DNA from: an uncultured Candidatus Saccharibacteria bacterium | GTDB taxonomy: Bacteria; Patescibacteriota; Minisyncoccia; Phycocordibacterales; UBA9973 | NCBI GenBank assembly: GCA_964349965.1 | Contig: CAYGIL010000001.1 | Coordinates: 1-30,552 of the forward strand | Length of the DNA: 30,552 nt | Direction of reading: 5' to 3' | Shown: positions 7,806-26,417 of the stretch, one piece after another | Layout of the letters: every line of letters begins with the position of its first letter | Numbering within the stretch: position 1 is the first letter of the stretch | Position numbers and translations under genes: made by a program | Notes under the pieces: generated by a model | The model's input: the letters and a program-made list of their open reading frames with translations, nothing else | What the model was told of the DNA's origin: nothing | Databases searched by the model: none

Positions 7806-8486
7806 CTAAAAATCAAGAATTATCGGCAAATGGTCTGAGACCTCCACGTCAGGAACAATGAGACTCTTTACCGGTACGTCCTTGCTCACGTATACATAAT
7901 CAGAATAGTACAGTGGGTTATCAGGGAACCTATCCCAGGCAAAATGATTGCGCGTGGTCTTAATATTGAAGTCCTTAACAAGCTCACGGTAACCTTGTTC
8001 GATAAACATATTATAAGTTTTTGTATCTGGTGATACATTTACATCGCCTCCCACTATCTTGAGTCCTTCTTTACCATGCATAAAATCAATGATAGTTTGT
8101 GATTGCAAAAGCCTAGCTGGGTTATCTCCTTTTTCCGGATGGGCCACTCCATGTATATTGCATAGATGCAATGTTTTCCCTCCAAGATCAATCTCGGTGT
8201 ATAGCACGACACCTTTATCAACATCATCCACTAATAAAGTCTCTGTTTTGCTACATCGAAGATTCTTCCTTATAAAGGTCGCCTGAGCAAACTCTTCATT
8301 TGGAGCTTTCTGAATTTCAAAAAAACTATCATAGAAATCGGGGAGAATATTGCGAACCACATTTATACAGTCCCCTTTTACTTCTTGCAAGCAAAAAATG
8401 TCTGTATCATCTTTATGACTTTCAATAAAACGAGATACTTCTTCTAGCATCTTGCCCTTCCAAATATTCAAAAAGATTATTCGCAT
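7806..8486 (-). CDS. Endonuclease/exonuclease/phosphatase (EEP) family protein
   Basis: LNIW, DIFCLQEV, GGDVN, DYVYVS and SDHLPI motifs; start taken at MRIIFLNIW. Confidence 0.88.
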   Translation of the reverse strand: MRIIFLNIWKGKMLEEVSRFIESHKDDTDIFCLQEVKGDCINVVRNILPDFYDSFFEIQKAPNEEFAQATFIRKNLRCSKTETLLVDDVDKGVVLYTEIDLGGKTLHLCNIHGVAHPEKGDNPARLLQSQTIIDFMHGKEGLKIVGGDVNVSPDTKTYNMFIEQGYRELVKDFNIKTTRNHFAWDRFPDNPLYYSDYVYVSKDVPVKSLIVPDVEVSDHLPIILDF

Positions 8487-8582
8487 ACTGCGCTCAAATA
8501 TACCACACTCCAGAAGACTCTGCGAATAAATATTGTGAACATAGTAAATAATTTGTTGTAATTTATTAACGAAGGAGGAAAT

Positions 8583-8681
8583 ATGCAATCTGGCAGACTC
8601 GTAGCGCGTGCCTGGGTGGCAGGCACGTTAATTGGAGGAGTCCTAATGCTCCTCCTCGGAGGGTATGCCCTAACTCATTAG
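8583..8681 (+). CDS. 32-aa hydrophobic microprotein (not in ORF track)
   Basis: GAAGGAGG precedes ATG 8583; MQSGRLVARAWVAGTLIGGVLMLLLGGYALTH; followed by a 14-bp terminator stem. Confidence 0.6.
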   Translation: MQSGRLVARAWVAGTLIGGVLMLLLGGYALTH

Positions 8682-8686
8682 GGCTC

Positions 8687-8728
8687 ATGCTCGGCAGGAT
8701 CTTTAATCCTGCCGAGCATTTACTTTTT
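8687..8728 (+). terminator. Intrinsic terminator
   Basis: ATGCTCGGCAGGAT-CTTTA-ATCCTGCCGAGCAT, perfect 14-bp stem, then TTACTTTTT. Confidence 0.85.
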
Positions 8729-8750
8729 ACCTCTATACTATTTGATTAAA

Positions 8751-8987
8751 CTACAATAAATGCTTTTTAACAAAAGCGTGACCTGAACCATGTTTTAAAT
8801 ATTTTTCAAAACTAAGTGCTTTCGATTTTTCTTTAAAAGCACAATACCAAATTAGTTCATACGTTCCATGCTTAGTGGTTTTTACAGATTTGTCTTTGTG
8901 ACTTTTGAGTCGAGTCTTTAAATCTTCGCTAAATCCTTTATAAAGTTCGCTTGTCGTTTCATTTTGGAGTATATAAACGTAATACAT
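8751..8987 (-). CDS. Small GIY-YIG nuclease family protein
   Basis: YVYIL...LYKGFSEDLKTRLKSH...ALSFEKYLK; ATG 8987 lies 6 nt after TATACT. Confidence 0.88.
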   Translation of the reverse strand: MYYVYILQNETTSELYKGFSEDLKTRLKSHKDKSVKTTKHGTYELIWYCAFKEKSKALSFEKYLKHGSGHAFVKKHLL

Positions 8988-9002
8988 AACAACAGTATAC
9001 TT

Positions 9003-9030
9003 GCCCTGCGTCGCTAAAGCTATGCAGGGC
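9003..9030. repeat. REP-like palindrome upstream of GIY-YIG
   Basis: Minus strand GCCCTGC-ATAGCTTTAGCGAC-GCAGGGC; similar to the in-frame insert in map. Confidence 0.6.
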
Positions 9031-9044
9031 CACCGCTTCAAACC

Positions 9045-9068
9045 AAAAACGCCCAGAAGGGCGCTTTT
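9045..9068 (-). terminator. Likely terminator downstream of tmRNA
   Basis: Minus strand AAAAGCGCCC-TTCT-GGGCGTTTTT. Confidence 0.7.
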
Positions 9069-9117
9069 TTTCACAGTGCTACGCACTGCGAAGCTCGTTT
9101 ACTAACGAGCGAAGCAG

Positions 9118-9518
9118 TGGAGATGGGGGGAAATGAGCCCCCGTGCAAGAGTGTGTTGCCATGACGTCTACATATGTAGCACGCTTATTTGTTTTAAGTC
9201 AGGAAATTCTTAAGCGAGCCAAATATTTCCTAACCGAGCTTCTTTACTTTGGAAAGATGTCGAAGCGGTCACCTCTCCTATCCCGATAATATTATGCCCA
9301 CGCGTATATATCGGAAGTCTATACGGTAGACACCAGTTTAGGCTTACGCGAAAACTGGAGGAAAAGCGAAGTCCGCCTTACCGAAGTAAGGAGAAACTGC
9401 TGCTTTTGCTTTAGCAGTCAATTTTGCAATTAACATTTTGAACAAAGTTTTGCGAGATTGTGTTCATACTCGATATGCATCACGAGCAAGTAGACCCCTG
9501 TCTATGCCTTGCATCCCC
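9118..9518 (-). ncRNA. ssrA: tmRNA
   Basis: 5' GGGGATG pairs with 3' CATCTCC-A with the G3-U70 alanine determinant; T-arm GGGGG/CCCCC; starts 4 nt after the smpB stop; candidate tag frame 9427-9344 ends ...VFA-stop. Confidence 0.9.
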
Positions 9519-24496: not shown

Positions 24497-24883
24497 TTAC
24501 CAAATCTGAAAGAGTGCTTCGCCGCCAACTTGCTCCTTTCGTGCATCTTTACCTCCTAAAATTCCCTTTGGTGTCGAAAGCACCAAGAGTCCTGTTCCGT
24601 TTCTGATCTTGTGAATATCTTTTACTCCGAAATACACACGTCGTGACTGCTTTGAAATGCGTTCTACTTGAGTAATGCGGGGCTTTTTGTTCACATATAC
24701 AAGCTTTACCTCTATATAAGGGTGATCATCTCGAGTTCGCTTTGCGATCTCAGATACATATCCTTCTCTCTTTAAACATTCGAGTATCGTGTACTTCATT
24801 TTAGAAGCTGGAAAGATAACAGACTCCTTGCCTGCAAGGTTCCCGTTCTTGATCATGATTAACATGTTTGAAATAGTATCCAT
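24497..24883 (-). CDS. rpsH: 30S ribosomal protein S8
   Basis: DTISNML..IKNG, LKREGYV, RISKQSRRVY, STPKG, VGGE. Confidence 0.96.
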   Translation of the reverse strand: MDTISNMLIMIKNGNLAGKESVIFPASKMKYTILECLKREGYVSEIAKRTRDDHPYIEVKLVYVNKKPRITQVERISKQSRRVYFGVKDIHKIRNGTGLLVLSTPKGILGGKDARKEQVGGEALFQIW

Positions 24884-24891
24884 AAAAGTAT

Positions 24892-25077
24892 TTACCAGCT
24901 AGACTTTCGAACTCCCGGAAGCATTCCTTCGTTTGCAAGCTCACGGAAGCAAATACGACAAAGTCCGAAGTCACGCATAAATGCGTTTCCTCGACCACAG
25001 CGAAAACATCGGTTCTTCGCCCGGGTAGAGAACTTTGGTTTCTTAAGCGCTCGCGCTTTAACTGACGTTTTTGCCAT
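24892..25077 (-). CDS. rpsZ: 30S ribosomal protein S14, type Z (zinc-binding)
   Basis: [15 protein letters not shown]...[10 protein letters not shown]...PGVRKSSW. Confidence 0.96.
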
Positions 25078-25256
25078 AAATAAAAATATCGTAAGATAGA
25101 CGATATCGTATATTTTTTCTTAAAACCCCTATATTTACAAGGCCTTAAGGAGAAATACAGATCAATCTACTTACTCGGATAGTATAGCAAATATTTTATA
25201 AAGAGTCAAATATAAAGGCCCGCGGACTTCCATCGCCAAAGCGACAGTCTGCGGCC

Positions 25257-25394
25257 CTACCTGGGTTGCGGCTGGAGACGATGCTTCGCCTCCAGCTCGT
25301 GCCGAGTGGCCATCCACTCAGTACGAGTTTTAAATTTGCACTTCGTACATCTGTACGTAATGCCAAAAAATATATCCCAAAACCAATCAAACAT
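25257..25394 (-). CDS. 45-aa microprotein with a C2H2 zinc-finger pattern
   Basis: GAGGGGAG lies 8 nt before ATG 25394; C-x2-C-x12-H-x5-H; hairpin after the stop. The track start at 25478 has no RBS. Confidence 0.65.
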   Translation of the reverse strand: MFDWFWDIFFGITYRCTKCKFKTRTEWMATRHELEAKHRLQPQPR

Positions 25395-25498
25395 TTTTCT
25401 AACTCCCCTCAAGCCGAAATAGCTTTCTTGGGGAATCCTCCAAAAATACCCTAATAAATAACTCTCTCTCTCTGTCAAACTTAAGAAAATAAAAAAAT

Positions 25499-25517
25499 AT
25501 CAAGGGTAGTCCTTGAT
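25499..25517 (-). terminator. Intrinsic terminator
   Basis: Minus strand ATCAAGG-ACTAC-CCTTGAT followed by a T-rich run. Confidence 0.65.
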
Positions 25518-25534
25518 GTTTTTTGGTAACATTT

Positions 25535-25786
25535 TTATTCAGTAGACAATTGAAGTCCAATTTTTTCAGCAAGTTGCTTTATCCAAATTTCGTGTCTGTT
25601 TAATTAAGTTTTTACAGCAGCATATTCTAATCCTAAATCACTAATTGATTTTGCAATAGAGTCATTTGAAATGATGAGACCTTGGACAAGCTCTTTCAAA
25701 TAACCTAAGTCAGTCTTGATCTCCTCGACATCTTTTTTAGATGCAAGAACGGTAGTAAGTTTGTTTATGTCTTGATCATTCAACAT
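25535..25786 (-). pseudogene. Small coiled-coil hypothetical with an internal in-frame TAA (25604-25606)
   Basis: Frame continues LNRHEIWIKQLAEKIGLQLSTE after the TAA, up to a stop just before the terminator; TTGACT-18-TACAAT promoter 6 nt before the ATG. Confidence 0.6.
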
Positions 25787-25865
25787 AGCTTAATTGTATC
25801 AAGAAAGCTTACTGCAAGTCAAAGAGTATTTTTGACCACAAAATGTGCTATTTTTACTTACTTTT

Positions 25866-26417
25866 TTATTCTTTCTTAAACGGCACACCGAGGAGTTCGA
25901 AGAATGCCATACCTTCTTTTTTACTTTTTGCTCCGGAGACGAGAGTGATCGAGAGGCCGAATACGTCACGGATGTCTTCGTCTGCTGTTTCCGGGAAGAT
26001 CGTGTGCTCTTTGATACCGATCGTTAGGTTGCCAATAGCATCTACTGCCTTTCGGTTCAAACCTCGGAAGTCCTTTGTTCGAGGAAGTGCGACGTTTAGA
26101 AGCTTTTCGAGGAATGCGTCCATACGCTTGCCTCGGAGAGTGACCATAATACCCACAGGGTCACCCTGACGGATCTTGAAAGACGCTATAGACTTCTTGG
26201 AGCCGCGCTTGCTTGGCTTCTGACCAGTGATCTTTGCGAGGCGATCAGAAACTACATCGTTTTTATTTTTATCTTTCTTCATCATAGTGCCGGTACCGAC
26301 GTTGATCACCACTTTTTGCATTCGTGGTGCAGCCATGACGTTTTTATAATGAAAGTCTCCTTTCATCTTTTCAAACGCCTGCGCTCCTTTTTCTTTTACT
26401 GTAAGATTTTTTGCCAT
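25866..26417 (-). CDS. rplE: 50S ribosomal protein L5
   Basis: KVVINVG, ITGQKP, SIASFKIRQG, VTLRG, LPRTKDFRG, IFPE. Confidence 0.97.
   Translation of the reverse strand: MAKNLTVKEKGAQAFEKMKGDFHYKNVMAAPRMQKVVINVGTGTMMKKDKNKNDVVSDRLAKITGQKPSKRGSKKSIASFKIRQGDPVGIMVTLRGKRMDAFLEKLLNVALPRTKDFRGLNRKAVDAIGNLTIGIKEHTIFPETADEDIRDVFGLSITLVSGAKSKKEGMAFFELLGVPFKKE

What the first reader, a model, noticed from the sequence alone, without database searches (positions are those of the whole stretch)
25257..25430. Stand-alone C2H2 zinc-finger-like microprotein inside the spc operon
Seen: MFDWFWDIFFGITYRCTKCKFKTRTEWMATRHELEAKHRLQPQPR has C16-x2-C19-x12-H32-x5-H38, the classical C2H2 spacing, with Y-x-C and C-x-F-x-T. 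It has an aromatic N-terminal segment, an SD inside a potential hairpin, and a downstream stem-loop. It lies in a ~790-bp insert between rplE and the zinc-type rpsZ. Established: classical C2H2 fingers are mainly eukaryotic and uncommon in bacteria (Ros/MucR being the known family). Inference: a novel single-finger protein, possibly a Zn sensor or store linked to S14, or a membrane-tethered effector.
Basis: partly seen in the sequence, partly recalled or inferred. Interest (0 to 1): 0.68.

Follow-up and report, generated by a model that had tools for sequence, protein, structure and literature searches.

The report
Zinc-finger-like microprotein on hairpin-packed RNA
A tiny unannotated gene between two ribosomal protein genes of a groundwater Patescibacteria (CPR) bacterium probably encodes a 45-residue zinc-finger-like protein. 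Its messenger RNA is itself under selection to fold into a chain of five hairpins. The unit was found in only two sister species, and its function is unknown.

Summary
The ORF is real and reads exactly as reported (minus strand 25394..25257, 45 aa, C-x2-C-x12-H-x5-H).

**Distribution.** No homologue turned up among 1.84 billion protein representatives, phage or plasmid records, or metagenome contigs. A search of all 212 genus genomes found one orthologue, in G145, a Hainich groundwater MAG. It sits in the same slot between rplE and rpsZ.

**Evidence for coding.**
- The orthologue is also 45 aa and keeps all four ligands, Y-x-C, F-K-T, W and R-H-E-L-E.
- Both His codons changed synonymously.
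- Eight of 31 changed codons are synonymous (P = 0.0015).

**Evidence for RNA structure.**
- Both transcripts fold into the same five-hairpin chain (z -6.1 and -12.8).
- They are far more stable than any of 1000 synonymous recodings.
- 19 base pairs changed on both sides.
- G-U outnumbers A-C 13 to 2 on the sense strand.

So protein and RNA structure are both selected.

- The 'SD' is not conserved, and this genome does not use SD sequences.
- The '790-bp insert' is two separate cassettes.
- The S14/zinc link is unsupported: the same slot carries unrelated cargo in other species, and a terminator plus a promoter separate the ORF from rpsZ.

No Pfam C2H2 model matches, and zinc binding and expression are untested. 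Best reading: a lineage-restricted, dual-constraint small-protein RNA.

The parts
25451..25478 (-). Conserved upstream element TTGACA-(GA)6-TTATTTATTAG. It looks like a promoter: a perfect -35 hexamer but only a weak -10 (TAGGGT at a 19-nt spacer; G145 has (GA)5 and TAGTCT at 17 nt).
   Evidence: Identical in G145 apart from one GA unit. The pattern occurs only in G000 and G145 among 212 genus genomes. The sigma-70 consensus scan did not pass it. Its promoter role is inferred.
25435..25445 (-). Conserved UUUUGGAGGA at the probable 5' end of the transcript, about 40 nt upstream of the AUG.
   Evidence: Identical in both genomes. Function unknown.
25401..25437 (-). Hairpin H0 in the 5' leader.
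   Evidence: Folds. G145 has a 17-bp hairpin of different sequence at the same place. Eight pairs changed on both sides.
25257..25394 (-). 45-codon ORF (P0001) with C16, C19, H32, H38; stop TAG at 25259..25257.
   Evidence: Orthologue L043:1492-1629. Coding signature.
25338..25363 (-). Hairpin HN inside the ORF (codons 11-19), carrying both Cys codons.
   Evidence: G145 has a perfect 15-bp hairpin here. Four pairs changed on both sides.
25297..25327 (-). Hairpin H1 inside the ORF (codons 23-33, 13 bp), carrying the His32 codon.
   Evidence: G145 equivalent. Three pairs changed on both sides, including CGU/ACG to CAU/AUG, which couples R24H with a synonymous His32 change.
25273..25296 (-). Hairpin H2 inside the ORF (codons 34-41, 10 bp), with the His38 codon in its loop.
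   Evidence: G145 has a 7-bp hairpin shifted by about 5 nt. Four pairs changed on both sides in the structural alignment.
25207..25258 (-). Hairpin H3 plus U-run: an intrinsic-terminator-like end of the module.
   Evidence: z -3.2. Nearly identical in G145.
25181..25209 (-). rpsZ promoter-like site TTGACT-17-TATACT. Not part of the module; it marks the module's downstream boundary.
   Evidence: The stretch 25222..25096 is conserved upstream of rpsZ in many genus members.
25499..25822 (-). Separate ORF60 cassette: promoter-like site 25822..25793, ORF 25786..25604, terminator 25517..25499. Not part of the module; it marks the module's upstream boundary.
   Evidence: Homologues in five relatives lie elsewhere in the genome. 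Absent from the G145 slot.

Best explanation
The region 25478..25205 (minus strand) is a self-contained unit of about 270 bp, shared with one sister species. It lies in a variable slot between rplE and the rpsZ promoter. It gives an RNA of about 240 nt that is both an mRNA and a selected structure.

**Shown.**
- The 45-codon frame is conserved with a coding-type substitution pattern.
- The four putative zinc ligands are conserved, along with the aromatic and hydrophobic positions around them.
- Five hairpins (one in the leader, three inside the coding region, one terminator) are kept in both species through compensatory changes, on the sense strand.
- The hairpins are far more stable than the protein sequence requires.

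**Inferred.**
- The RNA is transcribed from the conserved TTGACA element and ends at H3.
- The ORF is translated without an SD, as is usual for this genome.
- The product folds as an N-terminal hydrophobic segment packed on a Cys-knuckle-plus-helix domain that binds one Zn(II) through C16, C19, H32 and H38.
- The hairpins stabilise the RNA and/or throttle its translation.

**Guess.** The most likely kind of target is nucleic acid, possibly the unit's own double-stranded RNA or the (GA)n tract. This rests on no direct evidence.

My odds are about 0.75 for a real coding gene and about 0.5 for a zinc-binding finger. The confidence given is for the whole statement short of the target.
For: **Orthologue.** G145:C2:97885-98001 matches at E 1.9e-8. 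It is syntenic between rplE and rpsZ, is 45 aa, and shares the same stop, terminator and upstream element.

**Conserved residues.** 21 invariant positions, including C16, C19, H32, H38, Y14, F21-K22-T23, W27 and R31-H-E-L-E35.

**Coding signature.**
- pS 0.84 against pN 0.36, while the neighbouring r-protein genes show saturated pS of 0.67-0.75.
- Random placement of the 60 differences gives 10.0 +/- 2.1 identical residues (maximum 19 in 50,000) against 20 observed. The four ligands are kept in 0.1% of trials.
- BLOSUM62 sum is 113 in the ORF frame against 5-65 in the other five frames.
- Nine of 13 single-difference codons differ at position 3, and 8 of 31 changed codons are synonymous, against a null mean of 3.0 (P = 0.0015).

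**RNA structure.**
- Fold z-scores are -6.09 (window) and -12.75 (G145).
- None of 1000 synonymous recodings is as stable (z -6.8 and -7.6).
- A covariance model built from G145 alone finds the window copy at 64.8 bits, against 46.7 bits for a sequence-only model.
- 19 pairs changed on both sides and 93% of cells are paired, against 1-3 pairs in slid controls.
- 13 G-U against 2 A-C on the sense strand.

**Finger likeness.**
- The best solved-structure match is human MBP-1 finger 2, with the same C-x2-C-x12-H-x5-H spacing (E 0.75).
- The exhaustive phmmer search returns only multi-finger C2H2 arrays.
- Protein-language-model features score 0.95 to a 53-aa archaeal 'C2H2-type domain' cluster.
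- AlphaFold puts a strand at 12-15 and a helix at 24-37.

**Not an assembly artefact.** The sequence is identical in contigs from four groundwater runs.
Against: - There are only two sequences, so every comparative test rests on a single pair.
- No Pfam C2H2 model matches, even at E up to 10, and no match to a solved structure is significant.
- AlphaFold confidence is modest (pLDDT 70 and 66), and fold searches find no zinc finger.
- The canonical Leu three residues before His1 is Ala, and the Phe sits two rather than four residues after Cys2.
- Codon usage resembles off-frame sequence (only 0.8% of genic 45-codon windows score as low). GC3 of the 3' half is 0.80, against 0.39 for the genome's genes.
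- Neither copy is in the 15-billion-protein collection as a called gene.
- The TTGACA element has no good -10, and the consensus scan did not pass it.
- The AUG region is not predicted to be more open than the rest of the RNA.
- No RNA-seq run could be listed.
- Codon-position periodicity over the whole ORF is weak (18, 16 and 26 differences).
- F-K-T, Y and both Cys codons are identical at the nucleotide level, so part of the residue conservation may be RNA-driven.
Confidence: 0.6

Rival explanations
1. A purely non-coding structured small RNA. The five-hairpin transcript is the functional product, and the open frame with its C2H2-like pattern is a by-product of GC-rich stems that seldom contain stop codons.
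For: - Structure is strongly selected.
- Compensatory changes in HN and H1 were accepted at the cost of amino-acid changes.
- The ORF's codon usage and GC3 are atypical.
- Gene callers did not call it.
- An open frame survives random substitution in 11% of trials.
- The same genome holds at least one other promoter-to-terminator structured RNA with no Rfam family.
Against: - The within-codon test gives P = 0.0015 for excess synonymous changes.
- The ORF frame scores 113 against 5-65 for the other frames.
- Both indels are in frame.
- His38 is kept at x5 from His32 although hairpin H2 has moved by about 5 nt, so its codon lies in a loop in one species and in a stem in the other.
- The four ligands are kept in 0.1% of random trials.
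Confidence: 0.2
2. A translation-silenced selfish or toxin-like module of the type I toxin kind. A small, partly hydrophobic peptide is kept untranslated by a densely folded mRNA and is released only after processing.
For: - The mRNA is densely folded, and in G145 the AUG is flanked by or embedded in hairpins.
- The N-terminus is hydrophobic in both copies.
- The unit sits in an insertion hot spot.
The window 8481-8800 is among the most structured in the genome.
Against: - The hydrophobic stretch is only 13-14 residues, with D3 and D7 in the window copy, which is too short and too polar for a membrane-spanning toxin.
- The conserved part is the Cys/His finger, not the hydrophobic part.
- No promoter-like site for an antisense RNA was found on the plus strand.
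- The unit is single-copy and syntenic in both species.
Confidence: 0.06
3. One reading: a zinc sensor, store or chaperone coupled to the zinc-type S14 encoded next door.
For: The unit is adjacent to rpsZ in both species. S14 here is the four-Cys type (Pfam Ribosomal_S14 at E 2.5e-23).
Against: - The slot carries unrelated genes in other genus members and is empty (140-280 bp) in many.
- 210 of 212 genus genomes have the same zinc-type S14 context without this ORF.
- A terminator and a separate conserved promoter lie between the ORF and rpsZ.
- A single site on a 45-aa protein is a poor store.
Confidence: 0.05
4. A decaying remnant or chance ORF with no function at either level.
For: - The neighbouring ORF60 carries a premature stop relative to its 83-aa homologues.
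- The ORF is restricted to two species.
- The bare ligand regex occurs 5 times in the genome by chance.
Against: Neutral sites between the two genomes are saturated (pS 0.67-0.84). Even so, the frame, the ligands, the upstream element, five hairpins and the terminator are all kept.
Confidence: 0.03

Closest known systems
Classical (eukaryote-type) C2H2 zinc fingers, especially the C-x2-C-x-[FY]-x-[ST] variants (Pfam zf-H2C2_5 PF13909) and H-x5-H fingers such as human MBP-1/HIVEP1 finger 2 (PDB 1BBO)
   Same: - Ligand spacing C-x2-C-x12-H-x5-H.
- Aromatic residue two before Cys1, aromatic two after Cys2, Thr four after Cys2, and [KR]-H at His1.
- The only hits of the exhaustive search are such finger arrays.
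   Different: - It is a single finger in a 45-aa bacterial protein.
- There is no significant match to any Pfam C2H2 model.
- The canonical Leu three residues before His1 is Ala, with a conserved Trp two residues earlier.
- It has an extra hydrophobic N-terminal segment.
- Homology is not shown; this is a motif-level likeness.
Ros/MucR prokaryotic zinc fingers
   Same: A bacterial Cys2His2 site on a beta-hairpin plus a helix, with a larger hydrophobic core than eukaryotic fingers (PMC9779718). The conserved hydrophobic N-terminus here could play that role (inferred).
   Different: [quoted passage not shown]
- Here the spacing is x12 and x5, the whole protein is 45 aa, and no Pfam match to that family appears.
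Dual-function small RNAs such as Bacillus SR1/SR1P
   Same: A short structured transcript with its own terminator that also encodes a conserved peptide of under 50 aa. Both RNA features and peptide are conserved (SR1: PMC3526287, PMC5013986; here).
   Different: - No base-pairing target is known here.
- The hairpins lie inside the coding region and cover most of it.
- Only two members are known.
- There are no expression data.
One-domain zinc-finger micro-proteins of Haloferax volcanii (C(P)XCG type)
   Same: Proteins under 70 aa that consist of a single zinc-binding domain and are often missed by annotation (PMC6562870, PMC11241148).
   Different: Those use two C(P)XCG knuckles (four Cys, zinc-ribbon-like). 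This protein has one CxxC plus two His on a helix. No sequence similarity was found.
dsRNA-binding classical fingers (ZFa, JAZ, wig-1)
   Same: Classical C2H2 fingers that prefer double-stranded RNA (PMC5100589). One of the phmmer hits carries zf-C2H2_jaz. The unit's own RNA is mostly double-stranded.
   Different: Those are multi-finger eukaryotic proteins with long linkers. No Pfam zf-C2H2_jaz match to this protein was found. Binding is pure conjecture.

Membership tests
Classical C2H2 zinc finger (Pfam PF00096 / PF13909 and relatives) | Ligand pattern C-x2-4-C-x12-H-x3-5-H | tested here: met
   C16-x2-C19-x12-H32-x5-H38 in the window. The same pattern occurs in the G145 orthologue.
Classical C2H2 zinc finger (Pfam PF00096 / PF13909 and relatives) | Conserved hydrophobic core positions: aromatic before Cys1, Phe four after Cys2, Leu three before His1 | tested here: inconclusive
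   Y14 is present. The aromatic residue lies two after Cys2 (as in PF13909-type fingers), not four. The position three before His1 is Ala in both copies, with a conserved Trp two residues earlier.
Classical C2H2 zinc finger (Pfam PF00096 / PF13909 and relatives) | Significant match to a family profile | tested here: not met
   No C2H2 family is listed, even at E up to 10, for either orthologue. The best hits are DUF7836 at E 0.038, Rdx at 0.045 and Zn_ribbon_LapB at 0.053, all far below their cut-offs. The PDB profile search gives a best E of 0.048.
Classical C2H2 zinc finger (Pfam PF00096 / PF13909 and relatives) | beta-beta-alpha fold | tested here: inconclusive
   AlphaFold gives a strand at 12-15 and a helix at 24-37 with pLDDT 70, and pLDDT 66 with the two-sequence alignment. 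Foldseek, VIA-align and the Atlas return no zinc finger.
Classical C2H2 zinc finger (Pfam PF00096 / PF13909 and relatives) | Binds one Zn(II) tetrahedrally | not testable with these tools
   Needs metal titration of the peptide.
Ros/MucR | [quoted passage not shown] | tested here: not met
   The spacing here is x12 and x5, and the whole protein is 45 aa. Ros ligands are C79, C82, H92 and H97 (PMC9779718). No Pfam match was found.
Dual-function small RNA | Conserved RNA secondary structure | tested here: met
   19 pairs changed on both sides. z -6.1 and -12.8. The structured model scores 64.8 bits against 46.7 bits for the sequence-only model.
Dual-function small RNA | Conserved, translated small ORF | tested here: inconclusive
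   Conservation with a coding signature is shown. Translation itself could not be tested, and no RNA run was listed.
Dual-function small RNA | Regulatory base-pairing with a target RNA | not tested
   No target search was done. The conserved single-stranded stretches are UUUUGGAGGA and UUUAAAAC.
Type I toxin-antitoxin | Small toxin with a membrane-spanning hydrophobic helix | tested here: not met
   The hydrophobic segment is 13-14 residues, with two Asp in the window copy.
Type I toxin-antitoxin | Antisense or overlapping antitoxin RNA | tested here: inconclusive
   The consensus scan found no plus-strand promoter-like site in 24800-26000. No transcript data are available.
Haloarchaeal C(P)XCG zinc-finger micro-proteins | Two C(P)XCG knuckles | tested here: not met
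   There is one CxxC only; the other two ligands are His.

The most novel reading that the evidence does not exclude
A new kind of bacterial dual-constraint gene. An RNA made almost wholly of selected hairpins encodes a single classical-type C2H2 finger. The finger's target would be that same double-stranded RNA, or the (GA)n tract in its own promoter, giving a minimal self-regulating ribonucleoprotein in an ultra-small CPR genome. This would also be a bacterial lineage of classical-spacing C2H2 fingers unrelated to Ros/MucR.
Probability: 0.1. Interest if true: 0.8.

Novelty: new variant of a known kind. Interest (0 to 1): 0.55.

Why it matters
- **An overlooked gene.** Small proteins and dual-function RNAs are systematically missed, above all in CPR bacteria, where all genomes are MAGs. 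This unannotated 45-codon gene survived a strict comparative test.
- **Overlapping selection.** Selection on the peptide and on RNA pairing can be seen acting on the same nucleotides. For example, an Arg-to-His change in one stem arm is compensated by a synonymous His change in the other. That makes it a compact natural case for studying how coding and structure constraints are reconciled.
- **Classical-spacing fingers in bacteria.** If the peptide binds zinc, it adds a minimal classical-spacing Cys2His2 domain to bacteria outside the Ros/MucR family.
- **Limits.** Its weight is limited by its range (two sister species) and by the lack of any expression or binding data.

Tried and rejected
**Searches for homologues that found nothing beyond G145**
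- The word-indexed search of 5.8 billion clusters found nothing, with the single protein or with the two-sequence alignment.
- The exhaustive phmmer search gave only multi-finger arrays whose repeats add up, not orthologues.
- The first scans of metagenome and genome contigs with the 73-aa extended frame found nothing. With the alignment they returned only G145's own contig.
- tblastn against phages and plasmids gave no match.
- The profile search in 212 genus genomes and 401 genomes of the order gave weak hits. All lack the ligands, contain stops or lie in another frame of a larger gene.
- The covariance model in 150 genus genomes found only the two known copies.

**Other checks without a result**
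- Rfam: nothing near its thresholds in 24800-26000.
- Repeat-family idea: the GC-rich hairpins have no sequence relatives elsewhere in the genome.
- Laid reads: the ORF is identical in four runs, so there are no polymorphisms to test.
- Open start region: I expected the AUG region to be the one open stretch of the RNA, but partition-function unpaired probabilities do not show this, so the argument was dropped.
- 16S anti-SD check: no 16S gene was found in either MAG.
- Fold searches on the 45-aa model were uninformative.

**A reading I changed**
- My mid-session reading was a terminator stack with a chance ORF at 50%. I revised it after the G145 orthologue was found.

Full report
**1. What is there**

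The window comes from a small genome (G000: 635 kb, 118 contigs, 89% complete). The orthologue's record title names Patescibacteria.

The spc-type ribosomal protein genes lie on the minus strand:
- rplE 26417..25866
- rpsZ 25077..24892, the four-Cys S14 (Pfam E 2.5e-23)
- rpsH 24883..24497

The 788-bp gap between rplE and rpsZ holds two small ORFs.

**2. First pass: an orphan that looked doubtful**

No homologue was found:
- Pfam gave only sub-threshold noise (DUF7836 at E 0.038, Rdx at 0.045).
- The word-indexed search found nothing.
- The sequence is not a called gene in the 15-billion-protein collection.
- An exhaustive phmmer search of 1.84 billion representatives returned 16 hits. All are long proteins with 4-16 matched stretches, and the five I scanned against Pfam carry C2H2 fingers (zf-H2C2_5, zf-C2H2). 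That is motif likeness summed over repeats, not orthology.
- Sixty relatives had no match.

The bare ligand regex occurs five times in six-frame open stretches of the genome.

Other features also argued against a gene:
- The 3' half of the ORF is a compositional outlier: GC 0.67 and GC3 0.80, against 0.39 for the genome's genes.
- Its codon score is typical of off-frame sequence.
- The stretch 25340..25195 folds into three strong hairpins (z -5.2).
- This genome does not use Shine-Dalgarno sequences. Of 460 long ORFs, 7% have an SD 4-mer, against 9% at random positions.

At that point a non-coding hairpin stack seemed the likelier reading.

**3. The slot**

In genus relatives the rplE-rpsZ distance ranges from 140 to 1369 bp. 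Long gaps carry unrelated cargo: in five genomes a membrane protein plus a type IV pilin-like gene, and other things elsewhere.

rpsZ has its own conserved upstream region, with TTGACT-17-TATACT at 25209..25181. The slot is thus an insertion hot spot between two transcription units. Position next to S14 says little about function.

The other ORF in the gap, ORF60, is a separate cassette:
- It has its own promoter-like site and terminator.
- Its homologues in five relatives lie elsewhere in the genome.
- Those in which the full frame was read (G026) are 83 aa. The window copy has CAA changed to TAA at 25606..25604.

**4. The orthologue**

Searching all 212 genomes held for the genus gave one real hit:
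- G145:C2:97885-98001, E 1.9e-8.
- It is a 45-codon ORF between rplE and rpsZ.
- It is followed by the same terminator hairpin and rpsZ promoter.
- It is preceded by the same TTGACA-(GA)n-TTATTTATTAG...UUUUGGAGGA element.
- G145 lacks the ORF60 cassette.
- G145 is a Hainich groundwater MAG (JBBTUY010000002.1).
- Its flanking r-proteins are 79-90% identical to those of the window.

No further member was found:
- 212 genus genomes and 401 genomes of the order with the protein profile.
- 150 genus genomes with a covariance model.
- Metagenome and genome contigs, where only G145's own contig came back.
- Phages and plasmids.
- The upstream element as a DNA pattern in the genus.
- The weak profile hits proved spurious on inspection.

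**5. Is it coding?**

The two proteins share 21 invariant positions: both Cys, both His, Y14, F21-K22-T23, W27, A29, R31-H-E-L-E35, P42, P44 and R45. The two indels are in frame.

Synonymous sites between the genomes are saturated: pS is 0.67-0.75 in rplE, rpsZ and rpsH and 0.84 in this ORF, where pN is 0.36.

Three tests point to coding in this frame:
- *Random placement.* Placing the 60 nucleotide differences at random gives 10.0 +/- 2.1 identical residues (maximum 19 in 50,000), against 20 observed. All four ligands are kept in 0.1% of trials and an open frame in 11%.
- *Frame comparison.* With the nucleotide alignment fixed, the ORF frame has 22 of 45 identities and a BLOSUM62 sum of 113, against 5-65 for the other five frames.
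- *Within-codon permutation.* Re-placing each codon's differences inside that codon is robust to uneven conservation along the sequence. It gives a mean of 3.0 synonymous codons against 8 observed (P = 0.0015). Nine of 13 single-difference codons differ at position 3.

Both His codons changed synonymously: CAC to CAT, and CAT to CAC.

I take coding as likely, at about 0.75, while noting that all of this rests on one pair of sequences.

**6. The RNA is selected as well**

Folded independently, the two units adopt the same layout:
- a leader hairpin (H0);
- three hairpins inside the ORF (HN over the two Cys codons, H1 over His32, H2 around His38);
- the terminator (H3).

The evidence for selection on this structure:
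- Fold z-scores are -6.09 (window) and -12.75 (G145).
- Resampling synonymous codons for the same proteins never reaches the native stability: 0 of 1000, z -6.8 and -7.6. The structure is therefore not a side effect of the peptide sequence.
- A covariance model built from G145 alone finds the window copy over its full length at 64.8 bits (E 4e-19), against 46.7 bits for a sequence-only model.
- On the resulting alignment, 19 pairs changed on both sides and 93% of cells pair, against 1-3 pairs when partners are slid. That alignment is fitted to the structure, which inflates the count somewhat.
- G-U pairs outnumber A-C 13 to 2 on the sense strand. The pairing is therefore at RNA level and in the direction of the ORF.

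Several compensatory changes altered amino acids. One couples R24H in the 5' arm of H1 with the synonymous His32 change in the 3' arm.

H2 has shifted by about 5 nt between the species, yet His38 stays five residues after His32. That is hard to explain without selection on the peptide.

**7. What kind of protein?**

Likeness to classical fingers goes beyond the ligands:
- The best solved-structure match is finger 2 of human MBP-1, with the same spacing and matches at Y, C, C, F, T, T-x-H and H. At E 0.75 it is not significant.
- Protein-language-model features score 0.95 to a cluster of 53-aa archaeal 'C2H2-type domain' proteins. Small stand-alone C2H2-like proteins are therefore not unheard of in prokaryotes.
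- AlphaFold predicts a strand at 12-15 and a helix at 24-37, with only modest confidence (pLDDT 70 and 66).
- Fold searches were uninformative for so small a model.

Against membership of known families:
- No Pfam C2H2 model matches, and two canonical core positions deviate.
- The protein does not fit Ros/MucR, which has C-x2-C-x9-H-x4-H in a 58-aa domain (PMC9779718).

I therefore file it as working like a single Cys2His2 finger, with family membership not shown.

**8. Function**

Nothing tested here reveals the function. The conserved hydrophobic positions F5, I8, I12 and Y14 suggest that the N-terminus packs on the finger rather than spanning a membrane (inference).

Classical fingers of the ZFa/JAZ type bind double-stranded RNA (PMC5100589), and this unit's RNA is mostly double-stranded. 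The conserved (GA)5-6 tract recalls, from memory only, the site of the single-finger GAGA factor. Both are leads, not findings.

The nearest functional analogy is a dual-function small RNA such as SR1/SR1P (PMC3526287).

**9. Reliability of the sequence**

Contigs from four runs, which come from four samples in two studies, match the ORF with no differences. No contig bridges 25205..25222. Depth differs across that point in run X1 (11.3 against 6.26), which suggests co-existing strains that share the rpsZ side. The independent G145 assembly has the same join, so the synteny is sound.

**10. Verdict**

It is not upheld for the SD, the S14/zinc link or the membrane tether.

Noticed in passing
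window 25534-25786 (minus): ORF60 belongs to a small coiled-coil-like protein family found in five genus relatives; it is 83 aa where the full frame was read (G026). In the window a CAA-to-TAA change at 25606..25604 cuts it to 60 aa, while the remaining 23 codons stay open and similar. In G026 the homologue lies next to tRNA genes and a LAGLIDADG-like ORF, not in the spc region.
   Followed up: partly
rplE-rpsZ junction in loci L014, L019, L020, L026, L034: In five genus relatives the same slot holds a small membrane protein plus a type IV pilin-like gene (N-terminus GFTLIELLVV). Other relatives hold unrelated ORFs or nothing (gaps 140-1369 bp). The slot is an insertion hot spot inside a ribosomal protein cluster.
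   Followed up: partly
whole genome G000: SD-like 4-mers upstream of 460 long ORFs are no more frequent than at random positions (7% against 9%). Upstream regions are A/T-rich and G-poor, so this lineage appears to start translation without SD pairing. No 16S gene was found in either MAG, so the anti-SD could not be checked.
   Followed up: partly
window 25096-25222 (minus): A stretch of about 125 nt upstream of rpsZ, including TTGACT-17-TATACT, is conserved at 73-85% in many genus members although the sequence further upstream is unrelated. It may be a promoter plus a leader, possibly regulatory, for the rpsZ-rpsH unit.
   Followed up: no
G000:C7:6390-6660 (locus L061:290-560, plus strand): A promoter-like TTGACA...TATAAA is followed by an RNA of about 240 nt with very strong structure (-130.7 kcal/mol, z -10) that ends in a terminator. 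No Rfam family reaches its gathering score. This is an orphan structured RNA. C4:6561-6800 is a second strong outlier that was not examined further.
   Followed up: partly
window 25493-25522 (minus) and many relatives: The ORF60 terminator hairpin with its T-run (ATCAAGGACTACCCTTGAT + T-run) has 90-96% identical copies of 25-30 nt at several places in many genus genomes, for example six in G007. It may be a dispersed terminator or repeat element.
   Followed up: no
window 25205-25247: In all four public runs the Logan contigs break inside or just after hairpin H3. In run X1 the rpsZ side has about twice the depth of the module side (11.3 against 6.26). This suggests co-occurring strains with different cargo in the slot.
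   Followed up: no
window 8481-9200: In the partial genome scan, windows covering 8481-8800 and 8961-9200 are among the most structured (z about -4). This agrees with the earlier notes on hairpin arrays near a small hydrophobic ORF and the tmRNA gene. Hairpin-dense small units may be a recurrent feature of this genome.
   Followed up: no
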